A stretch of 64,000 bases of DNA from Candidatus Pacearchaeota archaeon (GCA_016866995.1 VGKQ01000001.1:16194-80193); one strand, 5' to 3'. Positions 21,856 through 46,406 are shown, counted from the first letter of the stretch. Notes: generated by a model from the sequence alone, not told the origin. Translations and numbers: made by a program.

Positions 21856-21884
21856 ACTTATTTGCCAATATATTTATTTTCATC

Positions 21885-22445
21885 TTATGCTTGTGTCTTA
21901 TATCCTATTATTAATTTAGCTACTTCACACTGGAAATAAATATAATCATTCTCATTCACCCTGTGACAAAGAGAAACAAAGCTTGAAGCAGTGCTCTCCC
22001 CGCCTTTTTTATTGCTGTAAATCTTTATTAAATTGCAGTACGGATAATTTGATATAGTGCATAAAATTTCTGTATTATTGCTGGGATAAACTGTTCTTAT
22101 TTCTATGCTTGAGACTTGCCATAATTTCTGAAATACTGTTCTGTTTCCAAGTATCATTGCCCTGTCCCCATCAATGCAATAATCTCCGCACGAGAATTCA
22201 GCGCTTGAAGCAAGAAAACCAGCCATTTCAGTAGCCCTGTTCTTTTCTTCAATATTAACTTCCTTTTTCAAGTCCTGCATATAAATTACAAGATAAAACA
22301 ATCCAGCCAATATAAAAAATATGAAAACAGCCATTATCATAAATGCCATCTGATGAATTTTCAACTGGGCTTTCATTTTAAAACACCAAATCTCCCTGCA
22401 AAAATATAATTTACCATATTTTGCACCCCTCTTTTGCAGCATCAT
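21885..22445 (-). CDS. Type IV pilin-like protein (probable true start near 22376, MKAQ...)
   Basis: The internal MKAQLKIHQMAFMIMAVFIFFILAG fits the K-A|Q class III motif. The longer track ORF overlaps the upstream gene by 35 nt. Confidence 0.4.
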   Translation of the reverse strand: MMLQKRGAKYGKLYFCREIWCFKMKAQLKIHQMAFMIMAVFIFFILAGLFYLVIYMQDLKKEVNIEEKNRATEMAGFLASSAEFSCGDYCIDGDRAMILGNRTVFQKLWQVSSIEIRTVYPSNNTEILCTISNYPYCNLIKIYSNKKGGESTASSFVSLCHRVNENDYIYFQCEVAKLIIGYKTQA

Positions 22446-23391: not shown

Positions 23392-23575
23392 TATTTTACC
23401 TCTTTTTTGTTAGTATATATTCTAAAGTATATTATGTTATTTAAATATAATCTTGTTTTAAATTAAGCGCATTTATGGAAATTAGCTGTTAAATTAATTA
23501 TTTATTGGCTGTTAGAATAATTAAACCATAAGCCCTCCATAATAAATATAAATATCCTAATAAAATAATTTTAAA

Positions 23576-24100
23576 TTATTTTATCCTGACAAGCCCCTCA
23601 TAAAATCCTTTTTCTATTGTCAAGCTTGCTTTCTTGTTTGGAATGCAGTATGGGTTGTCTCGAGATGTAATTGCAGTTATATTTATATGCTGTATCTCAA
23701 TTCCCCGAAAATCCTCGCACGCGCTTTTTACAGGATAAAAGAAAAGATTTCCATTTTCATCTCTCTTGTATACTGTCAAGTTTTCATAGAAATTCCTGTA
23801 TTTCCCTGATTCTCTTCTTGATGTGTCAAGAAAGCAGACATAATCAATTTTTCCAGGAAGGCTTATTGAAAAATTTCTCTCGCTCCTGTCCGAGTCCCAA
23901 GCATCATTTACAGCATCCTGTAAATCTTGTTTAAATATTCCTTCCTGTATCTCATCAGAAATTGTGCATTTATCCTTGCTAGGATTCCAAAATATAAAAA
24001 TTGCAACTATCGCTATAATTATGAAAAATACAATAAGAATTATAGAAAATATCATTGAAAATGGCAATCCTAAAATCTGCGCTTTCTTCTCTTTTTTCAT
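23576..24100 (-). CDS. Type IV pilin-like protein (class III signal peptide)
   Basis: The N-terminus is MKKEKKAQILGLPFSMIFSIILIVFFIIIAIVAI (KA|Q). Confidence 0.45.
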   Translation of the reverse strand: MKKEKKAQILGLPFSMIFSIILIVFFIIIAIVAIFIFWNPSKDKCTISDEIQEGIFKQDLQDAVNDAWDSDRSERNFSISLPGKIDYVCFLDTSRRESGKYRNFYENLTVYKRDENGNLFFYPVKSACEDFRGIEIQHINITAITSRDNPYCIPNKKASLTIEKGFYEGLVRIK

Positions 24101-30646: not shown

Positions 30647-30982
30647 ATGCCAAATATTATTGAATTATATTTTTTTCAGAACAAGTATAATCAATCTGAA
30701 TCAAAAGAAGCGAAATTTATTTCAAGGATTAAAGAAATTTTTCCAGAAATTCAAGTAAAAGAGATTGATATTGTAAAGGCAGCAACGCCTGAATTTTCAG
30801 AAATTGCTCTTGACTTGATAAAAAATCAAGGAATTATTTCTCTGCCAATTGTAATAATAAATGACAAATTAATAAGCAAGGGGAAATTGCCAGATATTCA
30901 AGAAATAATTGAGGAATTAAGGAGCAAGCAGGATATCAGCGAGAAAATAAGAGACATGTTTAACAAATTTCAGGATTTTTAA
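30647..30982 (+). CDS. Hypothetical small protein (111 aa)
   Basis: ORF only; it may have a thioredoxin-like fold but there is no CxxC. Confidence 0.3.
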   Translation: MPNIIELYFFQNKYNQSESKEAKFISRIKEIFPEIQVKEIDIVKAATPEFSEIALDLIKNQGIISLPIVIINDKLISKGKLPDIQEIIEELRSKQDISEKIRDMFNKFQDF

Positions 30983-31197: not shown

Positions 31198-33573
31198 TTA
31201 TGAAGCAGAGTTGTACATTCTTGCTATAATTGTGCAGTCAGCAGGATTTGGCTGATTTCCACTTGAGTCTACGCATTTGATATAATAGTTTGTGCTTGTC
31301 TTCCAGTCAGTATAATGATATGTTGTGTTTGCATATAATAATTGTGTTCCGGTGTTTAATGCAAAATTGCACTTCTGATTTACAGCTTCTGAATAATAGC
31401 AAGTTGATTTCTCATTTGTCTCAATTCTTAATTTTCCTCCTTCATTATACAGCCTTGTAACAAACGGAGCCTGCCTGTCTACTTGCACTGTAAATTTTGT
31501 GGAATTGTAGTCTGCATTATTTCCCAAATCAACGCACTTGAAATAATATGTGTATGTTCCAGGAGGCAGCTGCTGATTTTGCTTGTGTTTGCTTGAACCA
31601 GTTTCAAACATTTTTATGTAGCTTGAATCAGTATTTTGCTGGGAATAATAGCACATTGCATCTCCATTATTAAAACCGTTTCCTGTTTCAACTTCCAAAT
31701 CAACAGAAACAACATTTGCATATCCCTGAACTGTTCCGTTCGGTCCTGTTTTCAAAATATTCACAGGCTGTGTTCCTTTCAATATAAATGGATAGCTTTC
31801 TGCATTTGTATTTCTGTCATTTTGATTTTCCAGTGTTGGCTGGTCTCTGCATCTGAAGAAAAACTGATTGTCTTTTCTGTTTTCCAAGCCATTTAAAGTT
31901 GTATAGCACTTGTAAAGCATATTATTATTTATATTCCAGACATTCTGCGCACAAGTCATTGTATTTTCCATCAAATCATAATCTTTATCCTGCTTGCTCC
32001 ATCTGCAGTCAGCAGGCTCGTTTGTATAAACTTCTATATCTGTCTCATTCAAGCCAAACTGGAAAGGCATTCCAGACGGAATGCTTGTCCCAACAATTTC
32101 AGGAGGAGTTGTGTCAGGCCCTTTTTCAACGCAGAATCTTATTGCAAATTCATCCTCATTTATATTTCCATTCCCGTCCTGGCATCTTACATATAAAGTG
32201 TATATTCCGTCATGCTTGAGTTCAGGAGATGCATTCTGCATTGCACTTGGGCTTGGAAGTCTTAATGTCTGGCTGTGATTGTAGTCATACAAATTACTCT
32301 CTCCAAAATAAAACTGCATGTTTGAGTATGCGTTCTTGACATCTCTTACGTTTACAGTGTGATTATAATCTATTTTGCATTGTGTAGGCTCATTAGTTGA
32401 AATTCCAAATGTTATTGGAGTAAAAGCTTTAATACAGCCATCTGAAGCAGCATCTCTTGTAACTCTCATTCCTGTTCTAGGCGGACGTATGTTTACATCT
32501 TTATACGAGTGTCCTTTGCTTAAAACTTCCAGCCACGGAGCTATTGTCGGAGATGTTACATCATGAGGATTTTTCCAGTAGCACAACAATCCTTCTTTGC
32601 TTGGAACAACATCACATCCCTGCCCGAGTGATTTGCATCTGTATTCAGAACACGGACGCATTAAATCTTTATTGCATAACTCACAATATTTTCCTCCTGT
32701 TGGAGCTTCATATGGCTTGCATTCAAATACAACTTGTTTCTTGCTTTCTTTTTTCCATAACATATTCAAGACAAGCAATCCAACTCCAACTGCAATTCCC
32801 AAGCTTAAAAGCTGAGCCTGTCCTGCATTTGCCAAGCCAAGAGGCAATCCTTCAGTAGCTTTCGCACCCCAGACAGCTTTTCCTCCTCCCCACATCTCAA
32901 GATTTAATCCTTTTCCTGTTAAAATAGGTGATAATATCTGATATGTCATTGCTCCTGCAAATGCAGCCACTCCAAGAGCTTTCTGATTATTCTTGCTCAA
33001 TCCAAACATTCCTCCTCCAAGATATCCCACAAGCCCTATAACTCCTGCATAAAATAATGAACTGATAATAGAATCAGCTGCCAATGCTCCGAGAATATTC
33101 GAGCTTGCAGCAGCTCCTCCTGTCCCAGATGTTCCTACTTCTACAAGTTTGTTGCCTGCTCCCATTTCATATATTTTGTTTTTATACATAAGCTGACTTA
33201 AATCAGCATTAAATCTTACTTCTGACAGAGGAACTGCTCCTATGCCAGGTATATTAACACTATTTCCAAGAAGAAATCCTGAAAAAGGGTCTCCGGGCTT
33301 CATAATTCTTGTAAAAGCTTCTGCAACCTTCACAGGAGGGGCAACAGGGGGCGCAGGCGGAGGATTTGTAGCAGTAAGAATAATATTTGTTGTTGGTGTA
33401 GAATGATAGCTTAATCTTAAATCCATTGGTTTCAAAGATTCTTCTATGCTCGGCAAGCCAGGTACTTGAGCATCAGCAAGAGAAATCAAAAATGAAAAAG
33501 CAGCAACAGCTATAATTAAATCTGCAATTATAAAAATTGCTTTACCCCTTTTTCCCTCTTTTTTATTTCTCAT
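31198..33573 (-). CDS. Cysteine-rich membrane/surface protein, 'C-module' (791 aa), paralogous to the C-terminal half of 36989..41053
   Basis: It has an N-terminal TM, a Gly/Ala-rich multi-helix region and a Cys-rich ectodomain. Shared blocks with the giant protein include CKPYEAPTGGKYCELC... vs CKPWQPPVGGSDCDKC..., ADCRWSKQDK and PFVTRLYNEGG vs PYVTRVYNSQG. Confidence 0.6.
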   Translation of the reverse strand: MRNKKEGKRGKAIFIIADLIIAVAAFSFLISLADAQVPGLPSIEESLKPMDLRLSYHSTPTTNIILTATNPPPAPPVAPPVKVAEAFTRIMKPGDPFSGFLLGNSVNIPGIGAVPLSEVRFNADLSQLMYKNKIYEMGAGNKLVEVGTSGTGGAAASSNILGALAADSIISSLFYAGVIGLVGYLGGGMFGLSKNNQKALGVAAFAGAMTYQILSPILTGKGLNLEMWGGGKAVWGAKATEGLPLGLANAGQAQLLSLGIAVGVGLLVLNMLWKKESKKQVVFECKPYEAPTGGKYCELCNKDLMRPCSEYRCKSLGQGCDVVPSKEGLLCYWKNPHDVTSPTIAPWLEVLSKGHSYKDVNIRPPRTGMRVTRDAASDGCIKAFTPITFGISTNEPTQCKIDYNHTVNVRDVKNAYSNMQFYFGESNLYDYNHSQTLRLPSPSAMQNASPELKHDGIYTLYVRCQDGNGNINEDEFAIRFCVEKGPDTTPPEIVGTSIPSGMPFQFGLNETDIEVYTNEPADCRWSKQDKDYDLMENTMTCAQNVWNINNNMLYKCYTTLNGLENRKDNQFFFRCRDQPTLENQNDRNTNAESYPFILKGTQPVNILKTGPNGTVQGYANVVSVDLEVETGNGFNNGDAMCYYSQQNTDSSYIKMFETGSSKHKQNQQLPPGTYTYYFKCVDLGNNADYNSTKFTVQVDRQAPFVTRLYNEGGKLRIETNEKSTCYYSEAVNQKCNFALNTGTQLLYANTTYHYTDWKTSTNYYIKCVDSSGNQPNPADCTIIARMYNSAS

Positions 33574-33578
33574 CTTTT

Positions 33579-34268
33579 TTATTTTGTAACTAACATAAAT
33601 TCCTGCCTTCCGGCAGTGACACCATCAATTTCCAATTCAACAGCGCATGAAAGTCTTAATCCTCTTGCACCGCTTTTATTGTCAAAAAATTGCCTTGAAT
33701 AAATCATTCCTCCCGGGCTTACTTCATTTTCTGGCTCTCTTTCTATATCCTTTCCGTCGTCATACCAGACAAGCCTCATTTTTGCGGTTCTGCCTGTCTG
33801 ATTTAATCCTATTACAGTAATATTCTCTCCTTGGTTATATTGCCTTTTTTCAAAGCCAGACAACTCGCTTTTTCTGAGAAATTTATCTCCATTGTCAATC
33901 CAGTCATTGCACAAAATTAAAACAGGCAATCCATTTTCAAAATGAGTTTGCTGTACTTGCATAAATCTTCCAACATAAATATCCATTTTATTTGTCCATG
34001 AATTATACCTGTAAACATTATCTCCTAATCTTGCAAACTTCCAGTCAGGACTTACTAAGCAATTTGCAGTTCTTACATTCCCAACATATATTTCTCTTCC
34101 AGCAGGCACCCAGTTAATAGAATTAATATCAACAGCTACTGGCTGGCATTCCTCTCTTGGTGGCATATACGAGCCAAAATATCCCCCACCCCAGCATCCT
34201 GCAATACTTGCAGCTGCAGCACTTGCAAGTGCTGCCAATCCTCCCTTCATAAAATTTCTTCTGTCCAT
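33579..34268 (-). CDS. Putative Tat-signal lipoprotein (229 aa)
   Basis: The N-terminus MDRRNFMKGGLAALASAAAASIAGC has a twin-arginine motif (RRNFMK) and a lipobox-like AGC. Confidence 0.45.
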   Translation of the reverse strand: MDRRNFMKGGLAALASAAAASIAGCWGGGYFGSYMPPREECQPVAVDINSINWVPAGREIYVGNVRTANCLVSPDWKFARLGDNVYRYNSWTNKMDIYVGRFMQVQQTHFENGLPVLILCNDWIDNGDKFLRKSELSGFEKRQYNQGENITVIGLNQTGRTAKMRLVWYDDGKDIEREPENEVSPGGMIYSRQFFDNKSGARGLRLSCAVELEIDGVTAGRQEFMLVTK

Positions 34269-34330
34269 TTTCCTTGTTTTTCCTTATATAAACTTATATT
34301 TAAATCTTTTGTTTTGTTATTATTTAAAAG

Positions 34331-36157
34331 TTACATCACTTTTAAGCTTTCTAATAATCCCTGATTTATTGATTTATTTTGAATTTCAGCACTGGCTGTA
34401 GACAATCCTAAAAGCCAGTCTCCCCCCTTAAGCAAAGGCAAAAATAATTTTGTTCCAGAAACTCCAAAGCCACTTGAAAGATATTTGTAAACTCCTTCTG
34501 AGCCAGTGCAGTCTCCCAAAGCCCTGCAGATTTCTTCATTTTTCTTCTGCCAAGTATCACCCCCGCACTCGCAATTCTCAACACAATCCTCACTCCCTCC
34601 AAACAATCCTTTTTTCTCATACTCAATTGTGCACGCAGCATTTCCAAGGCTGCATTGTGATTGCGCCTCTCCTGCCTGCCAGAATTTCAAGCCAGGAGGA
34701 TAATTAGGCACACAAACCGCTCCTTTCAAAGTTTTTGGTTCATTTTCATCTTCTTCATCTCCTCCAAGAATTCCTGAAGAAGTTGTTTTCTCGGGCTCTG
34801 GAAAGCTTCCTGAACTTGAGCTTGTGCTTGCCTGAACTCCTGCAAGAATGCTTGTTCCAATTGCCCCTTCAATCCACTGGCAGTCTCCTTTGTCAACATT
34901 CTCACAGTCTTCTTTTGTCTTGAATGTCACGCAATTCTGCCACCTGTTTGCAATACACCCTGCCTGCTGAAAATCTCCTTTATCAGTTGTAATTTTATCT
35001 TGTAAACAAATCTCTGCTCTTAAATCAGCGCACGGCTCTACAAGCTCCTCGCCAGCAACGCAAATATGCTTCCAGTATCTTGAGCCAGCAGGATCTTTTC
35101 CTTTCCCTGTTCCATCATCATATATGCACCAGCTTTCACCATGTCGATAATCTTTTCCATCTTTTGTGTTCTTGCAGTTCAAATCCCTGCATATAAAATC
35201 TCCATATGTCGGCCTTCTTGCATCCTTGCTTGCATCATACTTCCTGCAAAAACTTCCGCCAAAATAATCACAATTTCCACAAGATACAGAATTTGCATTC
35301 GAGTTTGTATTTCCAGCCCCGCACGAATCTTTCTTTTCAATAATTTTTCTCCAGTATGCAGGCTCATCAATTTTTGCAGCATCATAAATATTCGCAGGAT
35401 TCCCGCACGTGTCCTTGAAATAAACTTCATCTCTTCCATCCACACATCCTGTTTTAACTTCTCCTTTGCTGTTTCTTCTTGCGCAGTTTGTTCCAAGCTC
35501 TTCAGCAGTGCACAAATAATCTTTGTGAAAGCTCGAGTTGCCTGTATAATTTCCTGTTTTCTTTTTCATTGCCTCGCACTCTCCTTTTGTTGTGAACTTG
35601 CATGTTTTTGTAAAATCCTGCTCATACACGCACGCTCCTTTGTCCTGGGCATGCGCAAGTGCAATGCATGCTGTTTCTGACTGAACATCTGTTCTGAAAT
35701 TAATCTGAACTCCAAAAAATGAAGAAAGCTTTTTGCATCTTACAAGAGTTACAAATGCTGCCTGGTCGCTGAATACACAGCATCCTAAATTGCATTGCGG
35801 AATTTCACATTTTGCAGAATCTGCCCATGTCCCATTGCTCGCCTGGCACACTAATTGCGGAGTGTTTTCCATGCATATTCCTTCCTTGCTGTCATAACAG
35901 CATCCCTGCCTGCAGTAAGATGTTGCATCGCATGATGTTGGAGTTATTCTAAAGCCAGAATCACAAGATTGTGTCAATGCATTCTGGCACCAAGCTCCAT
36001 AAATTGTTTTTTCACAGCAGACATTTGTCTGCTGTGCTGATGTTTGTGTTAATACAATAATAGACAATAAAAAAGCCATTCCAATAATTACAAAAGAAAA
36101 TATCATTCTCTTGATTAATTCTCTTTTTCTTTTTTCTTTAATCTTTTTTTGTTTCAT
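34331..36157 (-). CDS. Cysteine-rich membrane/surface protein, 'N-module' (608 aa), paralogous to the N-terminal half of 36989..41053
   Basis: An N-terminal TM is followed by a Cys-dense ectodomain (CC pairs). The 20-aa block CVDGRDEVYFKDTCGNPANIY is identical to one in the giant protein, and the two share a 60-nt identical DNA tract. Confidence 0.6.
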   Translation of the reverse strand: MKQKKIKEKRKRELIKRMIFSFVIIGMAFLLSIIVLTQTSAQQTNVCCEKTIYGAWCQNALTQSCDSGFRITPTSCDATSYCRQGCCYDSKEGICMENTPQLVCQASNGTWADSAKCEIPQCNLGCCVFSDQAAFVTLVRCKKLSSFFGVQINFRTDVQSETACIALAHAQDKGACVYEQDFTKTCKFTTKGECEAMKKKTGNYTGNSSFHKDYLCTAEELGTNCARRNSKGEVKTGCVDGRDEVYFKDTCGNPANIYDAAKIDEPAYWRKIIEKKDSCGAGNTNSNANSVSCGNCDYFGGSFCRKYDASKDARRPTYGDFICRDLNCKNTKDGKDYRHGESWCIYDDGTGKGKDPAGSRYWKHICVAGEELVEPCADLRAEICLQDKITTDKGDFQQAGCIANRWQNCVTFKTKEDCENVDKGDCQWIEGAIGTSILAGVQASTSSSSGSFPEPEKTTSSGILGGDEEDENEPKTLKGAVCVPNYPPGLKFWQAGEAQSQCSLGNAACTIEYEKKGLFGGSEDCVENCECGGDTWQKKNEEICRALGDCTGSEGVYKYLSSGFGVSGTKLFLPLLKGGDWLLGLSTASAEIQNKSINQGLLESLKVM

Positions 36158-36172
36158 TTTTTATAGATTATT

Positions 36173-36940
36173 TTATTTATTCACATATTTGTCAACACCA
36201 TAACCAGGAGGCCAGCTCAAGCTTCTTGTGGCAAACACAAGTTTTTCTCCTGTAATTCTGTGAGTTAAAGTATAAATCTTGCTTCCATCCTCAAGCTTCA
36301 TTTTCTCAATTTTAATATCAGGATAATACATCATAAATGTTTCTGGAGCAGAATCTCCTTCCCTTGCCTCCCAGTTTAAGATACTTGAGGCAATCATAAT
36401 CAAATCATACATCTCACTGTTCCTGGCAATGCTAAATTTTTCATAATTCTCGCTTGCTCCTTTTGTCAGAGTTACTTTCGAGTTAATTGTTATTTTTATG
36501 CTTCCAGATTCAATTTCTGTTGAAACTTCGGGCTTGCTTGAACTTGTTTGATATCCTTTGCTCTTGTAATCATTTATAAGCTCATTTAAACAAGTTTCTG
36601 CCTTATCTTTCATATAACTTGAGATTTCTTTTTCAACATGCTCCAATAATAATGGCTGCTGCATTGTGCATGTTTTATAATACTCATTTGTATAGCACAA
36701 ATATTCAATTTTATTTTCTTTATACATAATAGAATGCTCTGGCTCAAGGCTTCCCCCCCTTTCTGTAATATTTTCTATTATTCCCATATGCTGATTCATG
36801 CACTCTTCAATATAGCCAGAAGGAGTTTTTGGAGCTGCCCCTAAACTTGATAATCTTGGATAAAAAATAATTATTAACAAGCCGATAAGAACAATTGCTA
36901 TAATTATAAATATTGTCACCTGCGATTTTTTATTTATCAT
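36173..36940 (-). CDS. Pilin-like small membrane-anchored protein (255 aa), paralog of 41202..41981
   Basis: The N-terminus MINKKSQVTIFIIIAIVLIGLLIII is a class III-like signal (KS|Q). It shares YLCY...C.MQ.PL..EH.E.EI..Y with its paralog. Confidence 0.5.
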   Translation of the reverse strand: MINKKSQVTIFIIIAIVLIGLLIIIFYPRLSSLGAAPKTPSGYIEECMNQHMGIIENITERGGSLEPEHSIMYKENKIEYLCYTNEYYKTCTMQQPLLLEHVEKEISSYMKDKAETCLNELINDYKSKGYQTSSSKPEVSTEIESGSIKITINSKVTLTKGASENYEKFSIARNSEMYDLIMIASSILNWEAREGDSAPETFMMYYPDIKIEKMKLEDGSKIYTLTHRITGEKLVFATRSLSWPPGYGVDKYVNK

Positions 36941-36988
36941 TTTCCCTCTTTTTTCATAATCATTTTAATATTCTGCCTATTATAAATA

Positions 36989-39900
36989 TTATGCTGCTCT
37001 ATTATATGTCCTCACTTTAATTGAACATCCATAAGGCTCATTTCTCCACGCATCTCTGCACTTGATATAATAATTCTGCTGGCTATTCCATTCAGCAAAA
37101 TGCTCCTGAGTAAATCCTCCCTGCATTAATGTTCCATTTTCAAATATAAACCCGCAGTTCTTGTCTGTTCTCGAGTAGGCACATTCTGAATTTTCATTTG
37201 TGAAAATATACAGGTCTCCTTGTGAATTGTAAACTCGGGTTACATATGGCGCAGAAGTGTCAACACTCAATTTGAAATTTGAGCTTGCAGTTGCATAATT
37301 AAATCCAGCATCAACACATATAACATCAAGATTATATTCGCCTGCCGGCATTGATGTCAGTGTTGCTCTATGCACATTTGAGCCAGTGTTTCTAAATATA
37401 TCATACCAGTTTCCAATTACCCACGAGCATATTGCCTTTCCATTTTCTGCTCCTCCTGAAGTTTCTGCTCTCAAGTTAATAGAAATTGGCTCAGAGCCAA
37501 AAGAAAATGTCCCATTTGGCTCAATTTTAGTTATAGTCAGCTGGGTTTGTGGCACTTTTAATTTATAGACATAACTTTCTACATTTACATTCCTGTTTGA
37601 TTGATTTGCAGTTCCTTCCCATTCTGGATGATCCTTGCATTTAAAATAAAATGTATTCTCGCCTTTTGCCAAATTTGTTAAAGTTGTATTGCACTGCCAT
37701 AATAAACTATTTGAGTTGCATACAAATGAATTTTCCATTGCTGTATAATTCTTATCCTGTTTGCTCCATCTGCAGTCAGCTTTTTCATTTACAAAAATAT
37801 TTATTTCCTTGTCAGTTTGATTGAAAGCAACAAAAGCATTATTTAATGGATTGGTTGATACTATCATCGGCGCTGTTTTGTCAGGCCCCTCTCTTGTGCA
37901 TATATCAATTACATATTCCTGGCTGGATTTTCCAAAAGCATCCTGGCATCTTGTATAAAGCCTCATACTTCCAAGTTTATCAAGTACAAATTGTATTTCT
38001 GCATCTGACTGGTTTAAACCAAGCAGTTCTGCAGCAGCTTCTCTGCTTGGCATTGAAAACCCCATGGAATGATTTTCAAGATATAAATTTGAGTCTCCAA
38101 AATATTCAGCCATGTCTTCGTATTTTGCCTTGCTTGCAACATCAATCTTGCACTGGGAAATTTTATCTGTTTTTATTCCAAACAAGAAAGGAGTAAATAC
38201 AGGAATGCAGCTTCCATCTTTCTCTCTGATTTTAAATCCAGTATTGCTCACATTCATATATGAAAAATTTCCATTTAAAATTTCATACCATGGAGAAATT
38301 ACAGGAGCCTGCCCATTATCTGCAACAGCTGAGCATTTTTCCTGAGATGTTCCCTCGTTAAAAAACCGGCACGCTGTTCCAAGTGACTGGCATCTATATT
38401 TTGAGCACGGCTTTAATGCATCTTGTGAACATTTGTCACAATCACTTCCGCCAACAGGAGGCTGCCACGGCTTGCATGTATATGTTACTTTAACTGTCTT
38501 GCATACTTTTCCAACCCCCATGATTTCGAAAAATGACATGATAATAATTGCCACAATTACTCCAAAAACTATATTGCCTATACTTAATCCTCCAATTCCA
38601 ATTCCTGAAGCAGAAATACCTCCTTCGAGAGCTCCAGTTAAAGCATAAGTTAAGGCTTGGCCAAAACTCCAGCCATATACATTCATTCCATAAATAGTAG
38701 CAGCAGTATATGCTGCAGTCACTCCTGCAGCAGTTCCTGCAAACATTCCTGTTTGGCTTGTCTGAATTCCAAGCATTCTTAAAATAAGAGGAGCAATTGT
38801 CATGATTATTGCTGTAACCACTAATAAATTTGAAAACGCTGTTATAACTGCGCCAGGAGTTACTCCTGAAGTTATCGGCGCTGGAGGAGTTGTTATTCCT
38901 TCTGCAGCTGCAATTTCTCCAACACTTCCAACACTATTGCCAGCACTATCTAACAAAATTGTATCTGCAGCCAAATTTATTGACTCTCCCCCCATTGCCG
39001 TAGGAGCAACACTTATTTCAGGGCTATATGGAACATAAAATAAACTAGGCCCACTTTGTCCAGTAAGTTCAATAATAGCCATTTTTGTTCCTCCTTCACT
39101 AAGATAAGCAAATCCTTGAAATGTTGCAGGCACGCTTGTAGCACCAGATGCAGCCCCTCCTGCCCCTCCACCCCCACTAAAAATTCCTGCAAACATAGAA
39201 CTTTCTCTTGCTCCAACCACCCCCTTAGTCAGGCTGGAAAGAGCAGTTCCTCCATTCATATAATCAATAATCAACCCAGCTCCTGCAATTCCCAACCCAT
39301 ACATTAAATTTGCTTCTTTCTCTTTTTCTCCTCCAGGCATTCCAAGCTCCTGCAATGAAGTTAAGTTTCCTACAAGTTGTTGAATTGTTCCTGATTCTAC
39401 TTTCTGTCCAGCAACAGGAGTTGCATATTTTTTATACTGCTCTAATAAAATTTTGGGAGCTCCAGAAACAGTGTATCCTGCATCTGTAACTTTTCCAAGA
39501 ATATTTACATAAGCACCGCAATCTCCAAGTGAAATGCACAAGTCATTCATCTGCTGTGTGAATCCAATTTTCTCGCAGTTGCAGTTCTGCTCGCACTTGC
39601 ATTTCCCCTTCATATCTTTAATATAAATGACAGTGCATGTCTGAGTAGCCATTCCGCAAATCTGCTCAGCAGCTTTTCCTCCTGCTTCTGTTGACAAGTC
39701 AAATCCTTCTGGATATTTTGGAGCGCAAATGTCAAACTTAAATCCCTTGTCAACATTTACATTTTTTACAAAACAATCAAATCCAGTGCATCCATCTTTA
39801 TTTGCATTTGAGTTTATGCACTTCTGCCACTGATTCACTCGGCAAGAAGCACTTGAAAATTCCCCTAATGCAGTAGAAGTATCACTCTGAACACAAATTT

Positions 39901-41053
39901 CATTCCTGAAATCAGCGCACGGCTCTGATTTCACCTCGCCTTCAATGCAGGAATATTTAAAATGCCGAGAGCCAACAACATCACTTGAAAATTTATTACC
40001 TTCAACAACACCAATGCTTCCGTCATAAACACACCAAGATTCCCCGTTTCTTCTATCCTGCTTTCCGACATTGGCAGGAGCATTTTTACAAGATAAATCA
40101 GAGCAGATATAATTTCCTTTGTCTGGCTTTATTCCTGTCTCTTTATAATCCTTGCACTTGCTACCAAGATAATAATTGCAGTTTCCGCAAGTCTTGCTTC
40201 CTGCGTTTCCGTTTGCAGATTCAAGAAAACACGAATTTTCTTTTGGAATTATTCTCTCCCAGTAGCTCTGGTTGTTTATTTGGGAGACATAATAAATATT
40301 CGCAGGATTCCCGCACGTGTCCTTGAAATAAACTTCATCTCTTCCATCCACGCATGTTGTTTCTTCTGTTTTAGTGCACGAAGAATTCAGCAAACTTGAT
40401 GTGCATAAAATATCCTGGTAGAAATTATTATTTCTTCCTGTTAGTGATGAACACTCCTGTCCTGTCAGAATTTTGCATCCGCCATTATTAAGCATACAAG
40501 CTCCCTTTTTCTGCGCCATGCCAAGTGCCAGGCAGCTGAATTCTGTATTTACTGCTGCCCTGAAATCTGTTCTTAATCCTGATTCTGCAGACAATTTCTC
40601 GCACCTTCTGCTCGTAACAAACATTGTGTTTCCTCCAAGAATACAGCATCCAAGCCTGCATTCAGGAACAGAATTTATATTGCAGTTTTCGCTTTCATCC
40701 CAGCTCCCATGCTGTCTTATACAGGTTGCTTTTGGAGAATTTACAGAACAGGTTCCTTCTTCAGCATCATAACAGCACCCTGTCTGATAGTCAGAAAGTT
40801 CAGAGCATTTTGTAGGCAGGCATGTTTTTGTGCATTCTTGTGCGCAAGTGCTTGAAGGATAATCTTGTCCAAGTCTTCCATATTTGTCTTCAGGACAGCA
40901 TTGTTCATTTTCAGCGCTTGCTTCATCAATGCTTGCAATCATCCATGCAAAAGCAAAAGTTGAAAGAACAAGAATAAATATCTGCAGATAGCTTACTCCT
41001 GCTTTTCCTTTTATCAATTTATTTCTGTTTATTTTTACAATTTCCTTTTTCAT
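36989..41053 (-). CDS. Giant cysteine-rich membrane/surface protein (1354 aa) = N-module + Gly-rich TM region + C-module
   Basis: The N-terminal half is homologous to 34331..36157. The C-terminal half is homologous to 31198..33573. The central Gly/Ala-rich hydrophobic segment is like the N-terminus of the 791-aa protein. Confidence 0.65.
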   Translation of the reverse strand: MKKEIVKINRNKLIKGKAGVSYLQIFILVLSTFAFAWMIASIDEASAENEQCCPEDKYGRLGQDYPSSTCAQECTKTCLPTKCSELSDYQTGCCYDAEEGTCSVNSPKATCIRQHGSWDESENCNINSVPECRLGCCILGGNTMFVTSRRCEKLSAESGLRTDFRAAVNTEFSCLALGMAQKKGACMLNNGGCKILTGQECSSLTGRNNNFYQDILCTSSLLNSSCTKTEETTCVDGRDEVYFKDTCGNPANIYYVSQINNQSYWERIIPKENSCFLESANGNAGSKTCGNCNYYLGSKCKDYKETGIKPDKGNYICSDLSCKNAPANVGKQDRRNGESWCVYDGSIGVVEGNKFSSDVVGSRHFKYSCIEGEVKSEPCADFRNEICVQSDTSTALGEFSSASCRVNQWQKCINSNANKDGCTGFDCFVKNVNVDKGFKFDICAPKYPEGFDLSTEAGGKAAEQICGMATQTCTVIYIKDMKGKCKCEQNCNCEKIGFTQQMNDLCISLGDCGAYVNILGKVTDAGYTVSGAPKILLEQYKKYATPVAGQKVESGTIQQLVGNLTSLQELGMPGGEKEKEANLMYGLGIAGAGLIIDYMNGGTALSSLTKGVVGARESSMFAGIFSGGGGAGGAASGATSVPATFQGFAYLSEGGTKMAIIELTGQSGPSLFYVPYSPEISVAPTAMGGESINLAADTILLDSAGNSVGSVGEIAAAEGITTPPAPITSGVTPGAVITAFSNLLVVTAIIMTIAPLILRMLGIQTSQTGMFAGTAAGVTAAYTAATIYGMNVYGWSFGQALTYALTGALEGGISASGIGIGGLSIGNIVFGVIVAIIIMSFFEIMGVGKVCKTVKVTYTCKPWQPPVGGSDCDKCSQDALKPCSKYRCQSLGTACRFFNEGTSQEKCSAVADNGQAPVISPWYEILNGNFSYMNVSNTGFKIREKDGSCIPVFTPFLFGIKTDKISQCKIDVASKAKYEDMAEYFGDSNLYLENHSMGFSMPSREAAAELLGLNQSDAEIQFVLDKLGSMRLYTRCQDAFGKSSQEYVIDICTREGPDKTAPMIVSTNPLNNAFVAFNQTDKEINIFVNEKADCRWSKQDKNYTAMENSFVCNSNSLLWQCNTTLTNLAKGENTFYFKCKDHPEWEGTANQSNRNVNVESYVYKLKVPQTQLTITKIEPNGTFSFGSEPISINLRAETSGGAENGKAICSWVIGNWYDIFRNTGSNVHRATLTSMPAGEYNLDVICVDAGFNYATASSNFKLSVDTSAPYVTRVYNSQGDLYIFTNENSECAYSRTDKNCGFIFENGTLMQGGFTQEHFAEWNSQQNYYIKCRDAWRNEPYGCSIKVRTYNRAA

Positions 41054-41201
41054 TTTTTATATTTATATAACCTATTCTGCTTCTCTTCTAAAGAGAAGAT
41101 TTATACAAGATAAATCGCGCCTTTCTTCTTTACGAAAAGCACCCTGTTCTTTTCATTTTTTCTCTTTTTTTTCATTGTTCCTTTTTACAAATTTATATTT
41201 A

Positions 41202-41981
41202 TTAAAATCCTGCAGGAATTGCGCAGCTTCTTATTGCAATATTTAGTTTTTTGTTTGTGTATCTGTCATTAATAATATAAATTTTTGATGAATTTTCTCC
41301 AGAGCCGACTGGTTTTTTATCTATGCTGAAGTCTTTATGCATAATCATATAACCAAGATATTCAAAGTTGCAGTATTTTGCCTCTTCATTTGCAATATCC
41401 ATAGCAACAATTCCAAGATTATAAAGAGGAGAGTTGAATGCTGTTTTAAATGAATCAAATCTTCTTGTTTCCTGGTTTTTTTCAGTATTAAAAATCCTGT
41501 TTATTTTTATCTGAACATTGCCTGTTCCAAGAATTGTGCTTACATTCATTCCTTCCATTTTTACATTATGACTTTTGGCTTCTAATTCTGTTTTTAGTTG
41601 ATTAAAGCACAAATCAATTTTTCCTGTAATATAATTTGTAATCTCGTTTTCAAAATGCTCTATAAAAAGAGGAGTCTGCATAATGCACGGTTGATAATTT
41701 GCTTTAATATAGCAGAGATATGCAACTTTTGTATCATTATATAGCTTATAGTTTACAGGATTCAAGTAGCCCCCCTGAGGAAGCATTATATCTATTGCTT
41801 CAGATGCAGCATCTCGCGCGCATTTTTCAATATATGCCTGCGGATTGTCCATGCTCGGCCTCTGCATTTCTGGTTTTGTCTTTGATATTATAATAAAAAA
41901 TATTGCAATTCCCGCCACAATTATTACTGCAATAATTATGAATATTGTGATTTGCGCTTTATTTTTCATTTTGCCAGCCAC
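41202..41981 (-). CDS. Pilin-like small membrane-anchored protein (259 aa), paralog of 36173..36940
   Basis: The N-terminus MAGKMKNKAQITIFIIIAVIIVAGIAIFF has the KA|Q class III motif. Confidence 0.5.
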   Translation of the reverse strand: MAGKMKNKAQITIFIIIAVIIVAGIAIFFIIISKTKPEMQRPSMDNPQAYIEKCARDAASEAIDIMLPQGGYLNPVNYKLYNDTKVAYLCYIKANYQPCIMQTPLFIEHFENEITNYITGKIDLCFNQLKTELEAKSHNVKMEGMNVSTILGTGNVQIKINRIFNTEKNQETRRFDSFKTAFNSPLYNLGIVAMDIANEEAKYCNFEYLGYMIMHKDFSIDKKPVGSGENSSKIYIINDRYTNKKLNIAIRSCAIPAGF

Positions 41982-42151
41982 AAGTTCACCCCCTCTTTTT
42001 TTATTCTCTCAACCTTTCCTTCAATAACAAGCTCGAGAAATATTTTCTCAGCAGTATTCCAAGAAATTCCAAGCTCTTTTGCAAGCTCAGAAGTAGTCAT
42101 CACCTTTTCTTCCTTTAACAGTTTAATCACCTTTTCTTTATGAATATTCAT
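41966..42151 (-). CDS. Small winged-helix DNA-binding protein (61 aa) at the head of the surface-module operon
   Basis: ...MTTSELAKELGISWNTAEKIFLELVIEGKVERIKK... is wHTH-like. It overlaps the start of 41202..41981 by 16 nt. Confidence 0.5.
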   Translation of the reverse strand: MNIHKEKVIKLLKEEKVMTTSELAKELGISWNTAEKIFLELVIEGKVERIKKEGVNLWLAK

Positions 42152-42228
42152 AATAATATTAATAATATTAAACCTCTTTTTATTATTATGTTAAATATGT
42201 TGTATATAGTTATGAATATACATATTTA

Positions 42229-42396
42229 AATCTTCCGAAATAGGAAGATTTACGTCTGGAAATCTTAAACTTGTAAAAGTTTAATGAGTTAGAAAATCAA
42301 TTTCTAAACCTCTTCTAGAGGTTTATTTACATCAACTGTTTTGGTTGATGTGTTGTGCTGATAAGCACGACATTTGGAAACCTTTTTTAAAGGTTT
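42229..42396 (+). other. Highly structured intergenic region between PCNA and the wHTH gene, with four perfect hairpins
   Basis: Hairpin 1 is aatcttcc-gaaata-ggaagatt (42229-42250). Hairpin 2 is aaacctct-tct-agaggttt (42305-42323). Hairpin 3 is catcaac-tgttttg-gttgatg (42329-42349). Hairpin 4 is aaacct-tttttaa-aggttt (42378-42396). Confidence 0.4.
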
Positions 42397-42498
42397 ATTT
42401 TAAACCTTTCTCATCGAAGAAATCAGAAATAGATTATTAATCTTCTATGAAACCTGGCATTTATTATACTATTAATATACTATTAATTTTGCCTCATG

Positions 42499-44842: not shown

Positions 44843-45754
44843 TTAATCATCTCTATAAGGAGTTGCTCCAATATTTGTTAAGATGTCTTTTTTGTGCTGA
44901 GAATAATCTCTCTCTACAACTTTTTTTTGTCTTTTAATTTTTGCCAAATCAACATAATGGGCTGCTTCTAAAATAAGGGCTTGTTCAGCTGCTTCAATCA
45001 ATGTTCTATCTTTAACACCATATCTCTCTATTGCTATTAAAGCCCTCGTTGCAGGAAGTTGTTCTTCTTTAACTTCAAAACCAAATCTTCTCATTAATCC
45101 ATTTAATCCATATTTCCAAAAATCAGTTTTCCTGCTTAATAATTCTCTTGCTAGGGCTTCTCCAAATTCAACCCTTCTTCCAAGTTCATCAAGAAAGCTG
45201 ACATGCATATTATTAAGAATTTTTTCAAGATTTCTGCATGTCCAATGAGCACAACCTTCACATGCATGCCCGATTTCATCAATCCTATTTTGATGAAAAA
45301 GCATTTCTCCAATTCCATGTTGATATTCAAATGGAATCTCATCACTAATCTTGCTAATTTCAGCAATCTTGCTATAAATTTCTCTAAAATCATAAGTCTC
45401 ACATGAATCCTTTTGTGTCATTCTTTCAATCTTCGCTTCCACACTGCCAGCTTTATTCTGCATATCCTCCATGCACCCTTTGACTAAAGGGCTACCCCCT
45501 TCTTGAGCCTTGGATAATCCTTTCCATATTTCTCTAAATTTTGGGGCATGCAAAACAAAAGCTTTGAGAATAATTTTCTTTCCTTTTTCTCTTAACTCTG
45601 CCCCGCCATTTTCATAACATATCCCGTCTTTCTTATTAGGTTCCCAATCCCAATGAAAGTATCTTCCTTTATTTCTTGAATCATAAGTTCCAACTACTTG
45701 TTTTCTAAATCTTTCCATCAAATCTTTAAATTGTCTTAATTGATTATCTTCCAT
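44843..45754 (-). CDS. Hypothetical protein (303 aa), compositionally distinct (GC-elevated)
   Basis: It has a CxxC-containing segment HACEGCAHWTC and no assignable family. Its start is 1 nt from the stop of the upstream gene. Confidence 0.4.
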   Translation of the reverse strand: MEDNQLRQFKDLMERFRKQVVGTYDSRNKGRYFHWDWEPNKKDGICYENGGAELREKGKKIILKAFVLHAPKFREIWKGLSKAQEGGSPLVKGCMEDMQNKAGSVEAKIERMTQKDSCETYDFREIYSKIAEISKISDEIPFEYQHGIGEMLFHQNRIDEIGHACEGCAHWTCRNLEKILNNMHVSFLDELGRRVEFGEALARELLSRKTDFWKYGLNGLMRRFGFEVKEEQLPATRALIAIERYGVKDRTLIEAAEQALILEAAHYVDLAKIKRQKKVVERDYSQHKKDILTNIGATPYRDD

Positions 45755-45755
45755 T

Positions 45756-46406
45756 TTACCTTTTGCCTCCTTCCACTTCTTCTATTAATTCTGATATAGC
45801 TTTTTCAAGCCCCATCAGAATATCTTGTTTTATTATTCTTTGAAATAATGGTGCCTGGCTTACTGAAAATCTTTTTCCGTCAAATTTTGTATTATCTCCA
45901 CATCCACCAAAATAAGTGTAGCATTCTATTTTCCAAGTCTTATCTTTAATAATTTCTCCTGCAACTATTCCAGTAGTTTGATATGGAATTATCTCCCCTA
46001 AATGAGTGTAAGTCATCAAAGCTGCATCTCCATCTTGTCTCGGCCCAATATAAATCCCGGCTTTTCTTGCCCCAAAACACTTATCAAAATCAGTAGCATG
46101 CATTTTGTCATCAATTAAAAGAATATGCCTGTCTTCTCCTGCTTGTGAAAATCTAGGGATTGGAGGATATCTATAACCCTTTTCTTTAGATTCAACAATG
46201 TCTTCTTTTTTAGCATAAGCTCTAAGAAAATCCTGTAACTGCCTGTCAGCATAAAACATTTCAAATGCTTCTTCTGCTCCCCTATATCTTGAAGAACCTT
46301 GCAATCTTTCTTGCATTGCTAAATATACTTCTGGCTTAAACAATCCGGTGCTTCTATTTTGATTCTTTGTTTCCATTTTCTTATTCTCCGTCGTGCTTTT
46401 TAGCAC
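45756..46406 (-). CDS. Hypothetical protein (216 aa), compositionally distinct (GC-elevated)
   Basis: ORF only, with Gly-rich loops (GGCGDNTKFDGKRF); it is translationally coupled to 44843..45754. Confidence 0.4.
   Translation of the reverse strand: MLKSTTENKKMETKNQNRSTGLFKPEVYLAMQERLQGSSRYRGAEEAFEMFYADRQLQDFLRAYAKKEDIVESKEKGYRYPPIPRFSQAGEDRHILLIDDKMHATDFDKCFGARKAGIYIGPRQDGDAALMTYTHLGEIIPYQTTGIVAGEIIKDKTWKIECYTYFGGCGDNTKFDGKRFSVSQAPLFQRIIKQDILMGLEKAISELIEEVEGGKR

What the first reader, a model, noticed from the sequence alone, without database searches (positions are those of the whole stretch)
31198..42151. Tandem paralogous modules: pilin-like small protein + giant cysteine-rich membrane protein, with a fused versus split architecture
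Module A is a wHTH gene (41966..42151), a 259-aa KA|Q pilin-like protein and a 1354-aa giant protein. Module B, directly downstream on the same strand, is a 255-aa KS|Q pilin-like protein, a 608-aa N-half, a 229-aa Tat-lipoprotein insert and a 791-aa C-half. The 1354-aa protein is colinear with the N-half, the Gly-rich TM region and the C-half of module B (identical CVDGRDEVYFKDTCGNPANIY block; ADCRWSKQDK; P(F/Y)VTR(L/V)YN). The ectodomains are extremely Cys-dense (CC doublets) and match no family I can name. The architecture suggests a surface complex (adhesin or host-contact apparatus) nucleated on a type-IV-pilin-like subunit.
Basis: partly seen in the sequence, partly recalled or inferred. 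Interest (0 to 1): 0.85.

Follow-up and report, generated by a model that had tools for sequence, protein, structure and literature searches.

The report
Conserved two-module DPANN surface protein complex
This is a real gene cluster, conserved across Pacearchaeota/Woesearchaeota archaea, that encodes two anciently duplicated sets of disulfide-rich cell-surface proteins matching no known family; it is a good candidate for how these tiny, host-dependent archaea build or use their cell surface.

Summary
Seven co-directional genes (31198-42151, minus strand) form two paralogous modules, and the paralogy is colinear, not a Cys-repeat artefact (E 4e-99, 4e-103, 5e-39). The window is from a Candidatus Pacearchaeota genome. 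The arrangement primase | PCNA - wHTH - small - fused giant - small - N-half - C-half recurs in about 80 species-level Pacearchaeota/Woesearchaeota genomes. Modules A and B are separate orthologous groups, so the duplication and the split of B are ancient.

New points:
- The small proteins carry an invariant prepilin-type motif ([KR][GAS]-Q), but their fold is not pilin-like.
- The 500-aa Cys-rich ectodomain has no sequence or fold relative. The C-terminal part is four Ig-like domains.
- The split is not a simple fission, because the conserved N-terminal helix stays with the C-half.
- Cys-count parity covaries between the N and C parts (p = 1e-13), which implies a disulfide between them and places both outside the cell.
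- The "Tat-lipoprotein insert" belongs to a lipoprotein family that recurs at that position.
- The identical 21-aa block is a 68-nt gene-conversion tract.

The function is unproven. The best reading is a fixed, disulfide-stapled envelope or attachment complex, not a pilus.

The parts
41966..42151 (-). 61-aa winged-helix DNA-binding protein, the first gene of the cluster. Its TGA stop overlaps the ATG of small A.
   Evidence: HTH_24, DUF977 and GntR-type matches. The ATGA overlap was read directly. Homologs sit at the same position in about half of the related loci.
41202..41981 (-). Small protein A. It is 259 aa from GTG 41981, or more likely 255 aa from ATG 41969. It has a class III (prepilin-type) signal-like N-terminus (K-A-Q-I-T-I-F), a TM helix, a linker, and an alpha/beta ectodomain with 6 Cys.
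36989..41053 (-). Giant A, 1354 aa, the fused form.
   Evidence: ORF. It is identical to NCBI FJZ19_00330 of a Candidatus Pacearchaeota archaeon. Module A is fused in 64/64 related loci.
40913..41014 (-). Giant A aa 14-47: a conserved N-terminal membrane helix with the pattern KK[AG]-[IV]SY[LF][QE]I[FL]IL..S.FAFSY...VSA.
   Evidence: Column counts. A helix HMM matches 61/64 A giants, 31/32 split C-halves, 2/48 split N-halves and 0/118 small proteins.
39389..40912 (-). Giant A aa 48-555: the Cys-rich N-ectodomain, with 46 Cys, non-repetitive sequence and a beta-rich structure.
38507..39388 (-). Giant A aa 556-849: a Gly/Ser/Thr/Pro-rich linker plus hydrophobic helices (743-761, 770-792, 797-820?, 828-846). 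It contains no Cys.
   Evidence: Hydropathy. pLDDT is below 50. The length ranges from 124 to 508 aa across the family, and minimal members have just two TM helices. There are 0 Cys in this region in 60/79 members.
36992..38506 (-). Giant A aa 850-1354: a juxtamembrane 8-Cys module (850-915) followed by four tandem Ig-like beta-sandwich domains.
36173..36940 (-). Small protein B, 255 aa (K-S-Q-V-T-I-F), the paralog of small A.
   Evidence: 33% identity, E=5e-39. The B-type small proteins form their own orthologous group.
34331..36157 (-). N-half B, 608 aa: an ordinary Sec signal peptide followed by the Cys-rich ectodomain (45 Cys). There is no other TM segment, so it is a secreted chain.
   Evidence: BLASTP, hydropathy, and variable Sec-type N-termini in 48 orthologs. 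The giant-type helix HMM scores only 1.0 bit.
33579..34268 (-). 229-aa lipoprotein with a borderline Tat signal, an IAGC lipobox and an EF-hand-like D-x-N-x-D loop region. It is a member of a lipoprotein family that recurs between N-half B and C-half B.
   Evidence: Tat signal. Sixteen inserted ORFs from at least 14 loci form one lipobox family, and its HMM matches this protein over aa 103-153 (16.7 bits, E=2.8e-7).
31198..33573 (-). C-half B, 791 aa: a giant-type N-terminal helix, a Pro-rich linker, TM helices (158-190, 199-220, 253-274), the 8-Cys module and four Ig-like domains. It has 21 Cys.
   Evidence: BLASTP, hydropathy, helix HMM 18.9 bits with E=1.2e-7, and weak Big_13 and Y_Y_Y matches.
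40288..40355 (-). Gene-conversion tract in giant A. Its partner is at 35380-35447 in N-half B.
   Evidence: 68 nt with at most 2 mismatches, and 62/63 nt identical over the 21-aa block. The flanks are about 50% identical, and third-position identity elsewhere is 0.43. In this tract giant A carries B-type residues.
35380..35447 (-). Gene-conversion tract in N-half B, the probable donor.

Best explanation
The region is a chromosomal operon, specific to Pacearchaeota/Woesearchaeota, for a cell-surface membrane complex built from two anciently duplicated modules, A and B.

Each module pairs two proteins. The first is a small protein of about 255 aa whose N-terminus looks like a prepilin (class III) signal. 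It is probably cut before the invariant Gln and then stays anchored by its hydrophobic helix. The second is a large envelope protein. That protein consists of a conserved N-terminal membrane helix, a 500-residue disulfide-rich ectodomain of a previously unseen fold, a variable linker with a hairpin of two to four TM helices, a small 8-Cys module, and four Ig-like domains.

Both large ectodomains lie outside the cell and are tied together by a disulfide bond. In module B the Cys-rich ectodomain is made as a separate secreted chain and is re-attached to the membrane-anchored C-half by that disulfide. A lipoprotein is often added.

Steps that are shown: the gene content, the paralogy, the ancient origin and retention of both modules, tight gene coupling, the signal motifs, the Ig-like fold, the absence of any known family, and the Cys-parity covariation.

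Steps that are inferred: that the proteins assemble into one A/B hetero-complex, that the small protein is processed by a prepilin peptidase, and that the function is a fixed surface spike that holds the cell envelope to a partner surface (host attachment). I favour attachment over a purely structural role, but only modestly.
For: - Paralogy: E = 4e-99, 4e-103 and 5e-39.
- Distribution: the best hit is identical to a Pacearchaeota record, and 473 homologs are all unnamed DPANN proteins. At least 502 relatives occur in species-representative genomes, all Pacearchaeota, Woesearchaeota or Nanoarchaeota MAGs.
- Gene order: PCNA - wHTH - small - fused giant - small - N-half - C-half recurs across about 80 loci. 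Module B follows module A in 48/49 loci that have room for it.
- Orthology: A-type and B-type proteins are each nearest to their own type across genomes (62/64 and 53/53), and within-genome A-versus-B identity equals between-genome identity.
- Gene coupling: there is an ATGA overlap and gaps of 5-62 nt.
- Small family: Q is invariant after [KR][KR][GAS], and a FlaFind-type regex is met by 75/112 members strictly and by 101/112 if Ser is allowed at -1. The ectodomain has 6 Cys in 94/99 members.
- Giant: both ectodomains are modelled confidently, and the C part matches tandem Ig/FN3 adhesin-type domains.
- Cys counts: the total is even in 72/79 fused giants. N-part and C-part parity match in 75/79 (Fisher p = 1.2e-13). 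Both chains are odd in 17/19 split pairs, including the window's 45 and 21.
- Topology: minimal family members have exactly two TM helices between the ectodomains.
- Helix: the giant-type N-terminal helix accompanies the C-half in 31/32 split modules.
- Context: by size fractionation, Pacearchaeota were the DPANN lineage most strongly retained with larger cells, and DPANN genomes are reported to lack type IV pili systems (bioRxiv 10.1101/2020.05.14.094862).
Against: - There is no experimental or expression evidence.
- Assembly of A with B, and of the small protein with the giant, is inferred only from conserved adjacency. The wider 20-kb neighbourhood is also syntenic, so synteny alone is weak evidence.
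- Orthologs are 35-48% identical across these lineages, against 52-55% for PCNA and primase. That is more conserved than expected for a host-specific adhesin and fits a housekeeping envelope role at least as well.
- A Lys-rich stretch often follows the last TM helix. By the positive-inside rule this would put the C domain in the cytoplasm, and hydropathy counting of TM helices was ambiguous.
- The parity statistics ignore phylogenetic relatedness.
- The N-ectodomain was searched for fold relatives only as part of the whole 1200-residue model, so a sub-domain match could have been masked.
- No prepilin peptidase was found in the 64-kb window.
Confidence: 0.5

Rival explanations
1. It is a housekeeping envelope scaffold. 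The two modules would be structural parts of the cell envelope, for example membrane stalks that anchor or space the S-layer in the way SlaB holds SlaA, with no direct role in host contact.
For: The cluster is near-universal, single-locus and strongly syntenic in these orders. Conservation is fairly high for extracellular domains, with B-type orthologs about 48% identical. Arrays of Ig-like domains are typical of archaeal S-layer and envelope proteins (established knowledge; the fold is shown). The pairing of a small membrane-anchored protein with a large protein resembles two-component S-layers.
Against: The window already holds a better S-layer candidate: 17849-20449, 866 aa, Thr/Ala/Val/Gly/Ser-rich, with a Sec signal and locally raised GC. 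The giants have their own TM helices and are Cys-dense, unlike known S-layer proteins. There is no match to any S-layer family.
Confidence: 0.27
2. It is a type IV pilus-related apparatus. The small proteins would be minor pilins that polymerise or prime a filament, and the giants would be pilus-associated tip or base adhesins.
For: The class III signal-like motif has an invariant Gln at the predicted +1 position. Q at +1 is typical of EppA-type archaeal prepilins (my own knowledge of Szabo et al. 2007, which I could not read here). The giant's N-terminal helix carries a conserved Q/E five to six residues after KK[AG], reminiscent of Glu5 of type IV pilins. A separate cluster of four small proteins with class III-like signals lies at 21364-24100.
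Confidence: 0.1
3. It is a conduit or membrane-fusion machine. The complex would open a channel or cytoplasmic bridge to a host, or import lipids, DNA or metabolites.
For: Pacearchaeota have minimal metabolism and depend heavily on hosts. Large disulfide-rich ectodomains combined with an Ig-like domain and TM anchors are also a feature of HAP2/fusexin-type fusogens (my own knowledge). The N-ectodomain contains invariant polar motifs (NGESWC, GSRHW, EPCADxRNE).
Against: The TM region is the least conserved part. Its length varies from 124 to 508 aa, and some members have only two TM helices, which is poor material for a channel. The giants have no HAP2-GCS1 match, and no fusogen appears among the fold hits. 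No ATPase or other energy source is linked to the cluster.
Confidence: 0.1
4. These are envelope proteins of an integrated virus or mobile element, as suggested by the neighbouring PCNA, primase, Cas4-like nuclease and wHTH genes.
For: PCNA, primase-polymerase, Cas4 nucleases and small wHTH proteins are common in archaeal proviruses (my own knowledge). All of them flank the cluster.
Against: No relative was found in 2.9 million viral contigs, and there are no PHROG matches for the structural proteins. The cluster sits at the same chromosomal position in about 80 species, and orthologs track the genomes. The window is core chromosome, carrying FtsZ, an aaRS, TruB and ribosomal protein L11. There is no composition break apart from the locally higher GC of the Cys/Gly-rich genes.
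Confidence: 0.02

Closest known systems
Archaeal class III signal-peptide (prepilin-type) proteins: EppA/PibD substrates, including non-pilus cases such as the Sulfolobus bindosome sugar-binding proteins
   Same: The small proteins have a short basic N-terminus, then [KR][GAS], an invariant Gln and a roughly 20-residue hydrophobic stretch. This is the pattern cleaved by A24 prepilin peptidases, which leave the hydrophobic segment on the mature protein (PMC4858521).
   Different: There is no Pfam class III signal or pilin match. Ser occupies position -1 in about a quarter of members. There is no acidic residue at +5. The fold is not pilin-like. No pilus assembly genes are nearby.
Bacterial giant Ig-repeat adhesins (SiiE, Bap, intimin, GhpA) and other tandem Ig/FN3 surface proteins
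   Different: Sequence family thresholds are not reached (Big_13 22.8 < 27; Y_Y_Y 21.5 < 26.6). There are only four domains, each with conserved Cys. They are joined to a TM hairpin and to a 500-residue ectodomain with no relatives.
Two-component archaeal S-layers (SlaA plus the membrane-anchored SlaB)
   Same: A large extracellular protein is paired with a small membrane-anchored partner encoded next to it, and the arrangement is conserved across a lineage.
   Different: There is no sequence or fold relationship. Here the large protein is itself membrane-embedded, is Cys-dense, and exists as two retained paralogous modules. A separate S-layer-like protein is present in the window.
HAP2/GCS1-fusexin class II fusogens
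   Same: Both have a disulfide-rich, beta-rich ectodomain plus an Ig-like domain and TM anchors, and both occur in organisms that need cell-cell membrane contact.
   Different: There is no HAP2-GCS1 profile match for these proteins, and no fusogen appears among the structural hits. The domain order differs, because here the TM hairpin lies between the Cys-rich and Ig-like parts.
SPEARE and other very large surface proteins of DPANN/CPR symbionts
   Same: They are large, lineage-specific surface proteins of host-dependent ultra-small cells, proposed to mediate host interaction (my own knowledge).
   Different: Those proteins are built from recognisable domains (protease, adhesion, nuclease) and vary between lineages. 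This family has no recognisable catalytic domain and is conserved in sequence, architecture and position.

Membership tests
Type IV pilin / archaeal class III signal-peptide protein | An N-terminal [KR][GA] cleavage motif followed by small or hydrophobic residues and a roughly 20-residue hydrophobic stretch (FlaFind-type pattern) | tested here: met
   Small A has KAQITI. 75/112 family members meet the strict pattern and 101/112 meet it if Ser is allowed at -1. Q is invariant. Small B (KSQVTI) meets only the relaxed pattern. The giants fail in 121/122 members.
Type IV pilin / archaeal class III signal-peptide protein | A match to a curated pilin or class III signal profile | tested here: not met
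   Neither small protein has a pilin or class III signal family in Pfam or NCBIfam at E <= 1.
Type IV pilin / archaeal class III signal-peptide protein | The pilin fold: an N-terminal helix running into and packing against a beta-sheet head domain | tested here: not met
Type IV pilin / archaeal class III signal-peptide protein | Genomic linkage to a pilus assembly ATPase, a TadC/PilC platform protein or an A24 prepilin peptidase | tested here: not met
   None is present among the window ORFs scanned or in the conserved neighbourhood of about 80 loci. The rest of the genome was not searched.
Type IV pilin / archaeal class III signal-peptide protein | Cleavage by a prepilin peptidase and assembly into a filament | not testable with these tools
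   This needs N-terminal mass spectrometry and microscopy.
Tandem Ig-like/FN3 surface adhesins | Tandem beta-sandwich Ig-like domains in an extracellular protein | tested here: met
Tandem Ig-like/FN3 surface adhesins | Membership of a curated Big_x, FN3 or cadherin sequence family | tested here: not met
   Big_13 scores 22.8 bits (cutoff 27) and Y_Y_Y 21.5 bits (cutoff 26.6) in C-half B. Y_Y_Y scores 12.9 bits in giant A.
Tandem Ig-like/FN3 surface adhesins | Demonstrated binding to a partner surface | not testable with these tools
Archaeal S-layer proteins | A match to an S-layer family, or S-layer-like composition with few Cys | tested here: not met
   There is no S-layer family in Pfam or NCBIfam. 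The giants are 5% Cys. The 866-aa ORF at 17849-20449 fits the compositional picture better.
HAP2/fusexin class II fusogens | A HAP2-GCS1 profile match, or a class II fusogen fold | tested here: not met
Tat-exported lipoprotein (the 229-aa ORF) | A twin-arginine signal | tested here: inconclusive
   TIGR01409 scores 16.8 bits against a cutoff of 16.7. Pfam TAT_signal scores 19.3 bits against a cutoff of 22.7. The RRNFMKG motif is visible. Orthologous lipoproteins in other loci lack RR.
Tat-exported lipoprotein (the 229-aa ORF) | A lipobox with an invariant Cys at the end of the signal | tested here: met
   IAGC is at aa 22-25. Related inserted ORFs carry LSGC, LASC, MAGC, SGGC or GSGC. This was judged by inspection, because no lipoprotein predictor was available.

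The most novel reading that the evidence does not exclude
The A/B complex is the dedicated host-contact machine of Pacearchaeota/Woesearchaeota. In this reading it is a disulfide-stapled spike whose Cys-rich head, a fold seen nowhere else, engages the host envelope and starts the membrane contact or cytoplasmic bridge through which these metabolically minimal archaea obtain lipids and nucleotides. It would be an archaeal invention functionally parallel to viral and eukaryotic fusion or attachment glycoproteins, but unrelated to them.
Probability: 0.12. Interest if true: 0.9.

Novelty: categorically new. Interest (0 to 1): 0.7.

Why it matters
Pacearchaeota and Woesearchaeota are among the most abundant uncultured archaea in groundwater, lakes and sediments. 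They are thought to live attached to hosts, yet no surface or attachment machinery has been identified for them. This cluster is large (about 11 kb of a roughly 1-Mb genome) and present in hundreds of species at the same chromosomal place. It has been kept as two paralogous modules since before these lineages diverged, and it is built mostly from protein folds with no known relatives.

That makes it a concrete, testable candidate for their envelope or host-contact apparatus, and a source of at least two new protein folds. The split and fused forms also offer a natural experiment in how a multi-domain surface protein can be divided while remaining covalently assembled through a disulfide.

"Categorically new" here refers to the protein families and the architecture. 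The function is still unproven.

Tried and rejected
- Pfam, NCBIfam, PHROGs and PADLOC scans of all cluster proteins gave only HTH hits for the 61-aa ORF and sub-threshold Ig-like and Tat hits.
- PDB sequence searches found nothing. I used the single sequence and the profiles A1, A3 and A4, the last even at E <= 10.
- Fold searches gave no convincing match for the small protein and only Ig/FN3 matches for the giant.
- Counting TM helices by hydropathy across the family gave inconsistent numbers from 2 to 8. I abandoned it in favour of reading the minimal members directly.
- N-glycosylation sequon enrichment was inconclusive.
- My first Cys-parity test used HMM envelopes, which clipped edge cysteines and misled. 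I redid it with motif-anchored boundaries.
- The idea of palindromic operators in the PCNA-wHTH spacer is not significant. There are two AAACC-N9-GGTTT hairpins, and 15/100 shuffles do as well.
- The provirus idea is rejected.
- The low-complexity artefact idea is rejected.
- Four literature searches and four papers read found no description of this family. Szabo et al. 2007 was not available.

Full report
**Observation.** The seven ORFs are present as described, all on the minus strand. They are a wHTH gene (41966-42151), small A (41202-41981), giant A (36989-41053), small B (36173-36940), N-half B (34331-36157), a 229-aa ORF (33579-34268) and C-half B (31198-33573). Giant A aligns colinearly with N-half B (35% identity, E=4e-99) and with C-half B (37%, E=4e-103). 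The two small proteins are 33% identical (E=5e-39). Profile-profile comparison of sub-segments shows that the N-ectodomain is not internally repetitive. Only the Ig-like C-terminal domains repeat, with probability 97%. The paralogy is therefore true colinear homology. The genes are tightly packed. The wHTH stop overlaps an ATG of small A (ATGA), so small A is probably 255 aa, as in the NCBI record. The other gaps are 5-148 nt.

**Origin and distribution.** Giant A is identical to FJZ19_00330 of a Candidatus Pacearchaeota archaeon. All 473 detectable homologs are unnamed proteins from Pacearchaeota or 'Nanoarchaeota' metagenome bins. A scan of one genome per species found at least 502 relatives, and the best 80 loci are all Pacearchaeota, Woesearchaeota or Nanoarchaeota MAGs. 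An N-ectodomain profile searched against 1.84 billion representative proteins finds 1704 members. They fall into only two architectures, about 550 aa alone or about 1250 aa fused. No relative exists in 2.9 million viral contigs. The window itself is ordinary chromosome, with FtsZ, L11, an aaRS, TruB and thymidylate synthase.

**Synteny and age.** I searched six-frame ORFs of 83 loci with HMMs. The order is primase (opposite strand), PCNA, often a roughly 60-aa wHTH, small, fused giant, small, and then module B. Module A is fused in 64/64 loci. Module B is split in 32 complete cases, plus 16 cut by contig ends, and fused in 5. Module B follows A in 48/49 loci with room for it. A-type proteins are each other's nearest neighbours across genomes (62/64), as are B-type proteins (53/53). 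Within-genome A-versus-B identity (about 35%) equals between-genome A-versus-B identity. The duplication and the split of B therefore predate the divergence of these lineages, and both copies have been kept. For the same genome pairs, median identity is 55% for PCNA, 52% for primase, 40% for the N-ectodomain, 36% for the C-part and 35% for the small protein. Synteny also extends beyond primase to a 588-aa Cys-rich anchored protein and a 417-aa secreted protein. Adjacency to PCNA therefore need not be functional.

**Giants.** The model of giant A residues 1-1200 is confident for aa 48-555 and 850-1200, and poor for 565-827. The parts are as follows:
- A conserved N-terminal helix has the pattern KK[AG]-[IV]SY[LF][QE]I[FL]IL..S.FAFSY..VSA. 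This is far better conserved than a normal signal peptide.
- A beta-rich ectodomain with 46 Cys has no sequence relative in the PDB and no structural match above the roughly 100-residue Ig/FN3 hits.
- A Cys-free, Gly/Ser/Thr/Pro-rich linker with TM helices varies in length from 124 to 508 aa. In the shortest members it reduces to a hairpin of two TM helices.
- An 8-Cys juxtamembrane module is followed by four Ig-like domains.

**The split is not a simple fission.** Split N-halves carry ordinary, variable Sec signal peptides. Split C-halves carry the conserved giant-type N-terminal helix. An HMM of that helix matches 31/32 split C-halves, 2/48 split N-halves, 61/64 A giants and 0/118 small proteins. 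In the window, C-half B scores 18.9 bits and N-half B 1.0 bit. In effect, the Cys-rich ectodomain has been lifted out from between the helix and the TM region and is encoded as a separate secreted chain. This implies that the helix works together with the TM/C part.

**Lipoprotein.** In 24 loci something lies between N-half B and C-half B. Sixteen of these ORFs, from at least 14 loci, form one family with lipobox signals and an EF-hand-like D-x-N-x-D loop. An HMM of that family matches the window's 229-aa protein (E=2.8e-7). It is a recurrent, optional component and not a chance insert. Only the window's copy has a twin-arginine motif.

**Disulfides and topology.** In 79 fused giants the total Cys count is even in 72. 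The N-part and C-part parities agree in 75 cases, odd/odd in 57 and even/even in 18 (Fisher p=1.2e-13). In 19 split pairs both chains are odd in 17, typically 43-45 plus 21. The window's N-half B has 45 Cys and C-half B has 21, while giant A has 46 plus 22. The simplest reading is that nearly all Cys are paired and that one disulfide joins the two ectodomains. In the split form that bond would be inter-chain. This places both ectodomains on the same, oxidising side of the membrane, in agreement with the two-TM minimal members. There are three caveats. The sequences are related, so the p-value overstates independence. A Lys-rich stretch often follows the last TM helix. I could not inspect the model coordinates.

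**Gene conversion.** The tract is 68 nt with at most 2 mismatches (40288-40355 and 35380-35447). It is sharply bounded by flanks of about 50% identity, and third-position identity elsewhere is 0.43. In this tract giant A carries residues typical of B-type proteins, so the direction was B to A.

**Interpretation.** What is shown is a conserved operon for extracellular, membrane-anchored, disulfide-rich proteins in two retained paralogous modules, each with a prepilin-type small partner. What is inferred is that they assemble into one complex. I commit to a fixed surface spike that links the envelope to a partner surface (confidence 0.5 for the whole statement). The context fits this reading. 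Pacearchaeota were the DPANN lineage most strongly retained with larger cells, have minimal metabolism, and DPANN genomes reportedly lack type IV pili. The main rival is a housekeeping envelope scaffold (0.27). The degree of conservation favours it, but a better S-layer candidate in the window weakens it. A pilus-based apparatus (0.1), a channel or fusion machine (0.1) and a provirus (0.02) are less likely, for the reasons given under rival explanations.

**Novelty.** No paper found describes this family. Every membership test beyond the signal motif and the generic Ig fold failed. I therefore rate the families and the architecture as categorically new, and I stress that the function is unproven.

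Noticed in passing
window 17849-20449 (-): An 866-aa protein with a Sec signal. It is 13% Thr, 11% Ala, 10% Val and 9% Gly, has only 4 Cys, and sits in locally raised GC (0.415). Its C-terminus carries the motif NLLVVGGSCVN. There is no Pfam or PHROG match. It looks like the S-layer protein of this organism.
   Followed up: partly
window 21364-24100 (-): Four consecutive small Cys-containing proteins (163, 186, 326 and 174 aa) have class III signal-like N-termini (NKGQEEIVGF, MKAQLKI, KRGFEFSF, KKAQILGL). They may be a separate pilin-like gene set. Their similarity to the small A/B family is only at the hydrophobic-helix level.
   Followed up: partly
window 48164-49930 (+), 50136-51389 (+), 51573-52016 (-): The first is a 588-aa secreted protein with 31 Cys. 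It has repeated AFSLLALS-type motifs suggesting an alpha/alpha toroid, a Cys-rich stretch, a C-terminal TM helix and a Pro/Met/Arg-rich tail. It is conserved at the same relative position in 30 related loci (E as low as 1e-173). The 417-aa secreted protein is conserved in 24 loci and the 147-aa protein in 19. They may be further conserved surface components of the same chromosomal neighbourhood. The 588-aa and 417-aa proteins have no Pfam family above cutoff, and the 588-aa protein has no PDB relative.
   Followed up: partly
window 13359-14957 (+): A 532-aa secreted protein has sub-threshold Pfam hits over aa 400-480 to FixG_C, NPCBM_assoc and HAP2-GCS1 (24 bits against a cutoff of 27.4, in the Ig-like domain III region). 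It is probably a generic Ig-like surface protein.
   Followed up: no
window 42152-42498: The 347-nt PCNA-wHTH spacer contains two hairpins, AAACC-N9-GGTTT, at 42306-42324 and 42378-42396, plus AT-rich palindromes. They are not statistically unusual, since 15/100 shuffles reach two. They could be terminators of PCNA or operators for the wHTH protein.
   Followed up: partly
window 44843-46406 (-): Two ORFs (303 and 216 aa) lie between primase and the TrmB/Cas4 genes. They have no Pfam match and no ortholog in any of the 83 related loci, so they are a lineage-specific insertion in an otherwise syntenic block.
   Followed up: partly
window 30647-30982 (+): A 111-aa ORF with a weak Thioredoxin_3 match lies directly downstream of the Cys-rich cluster. 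It is not conserved at this position in other loci, and nothing downstream of C-half B is.
   Followed up: partly
L003 11853-12474: In one related genome a nucleotidyltransferase/HepT-like toxin-antitoxin pair is inserted between module A and module B. The two modules therefore tolerate being separated.
   Followed up: no
L078 (DAOTCN010000002.1): A 379-kb contig labelled 'Candidatus Paceibacterota bacterium' carries archaeal primase, PCNA and the full two-module cluster. The record is probably a mislabelled or mis-binned Pacearchaeota genome.
   Followed up: no
P0099, P0021 (homologs of giant A): Two family members are named 'GRP family sugar transporter' and 'cytochrome c oxidase subunit IV' by their sources. 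These annotations are almost certainly spurious and driven by the hydrophobic middle region.
   Followed up: no
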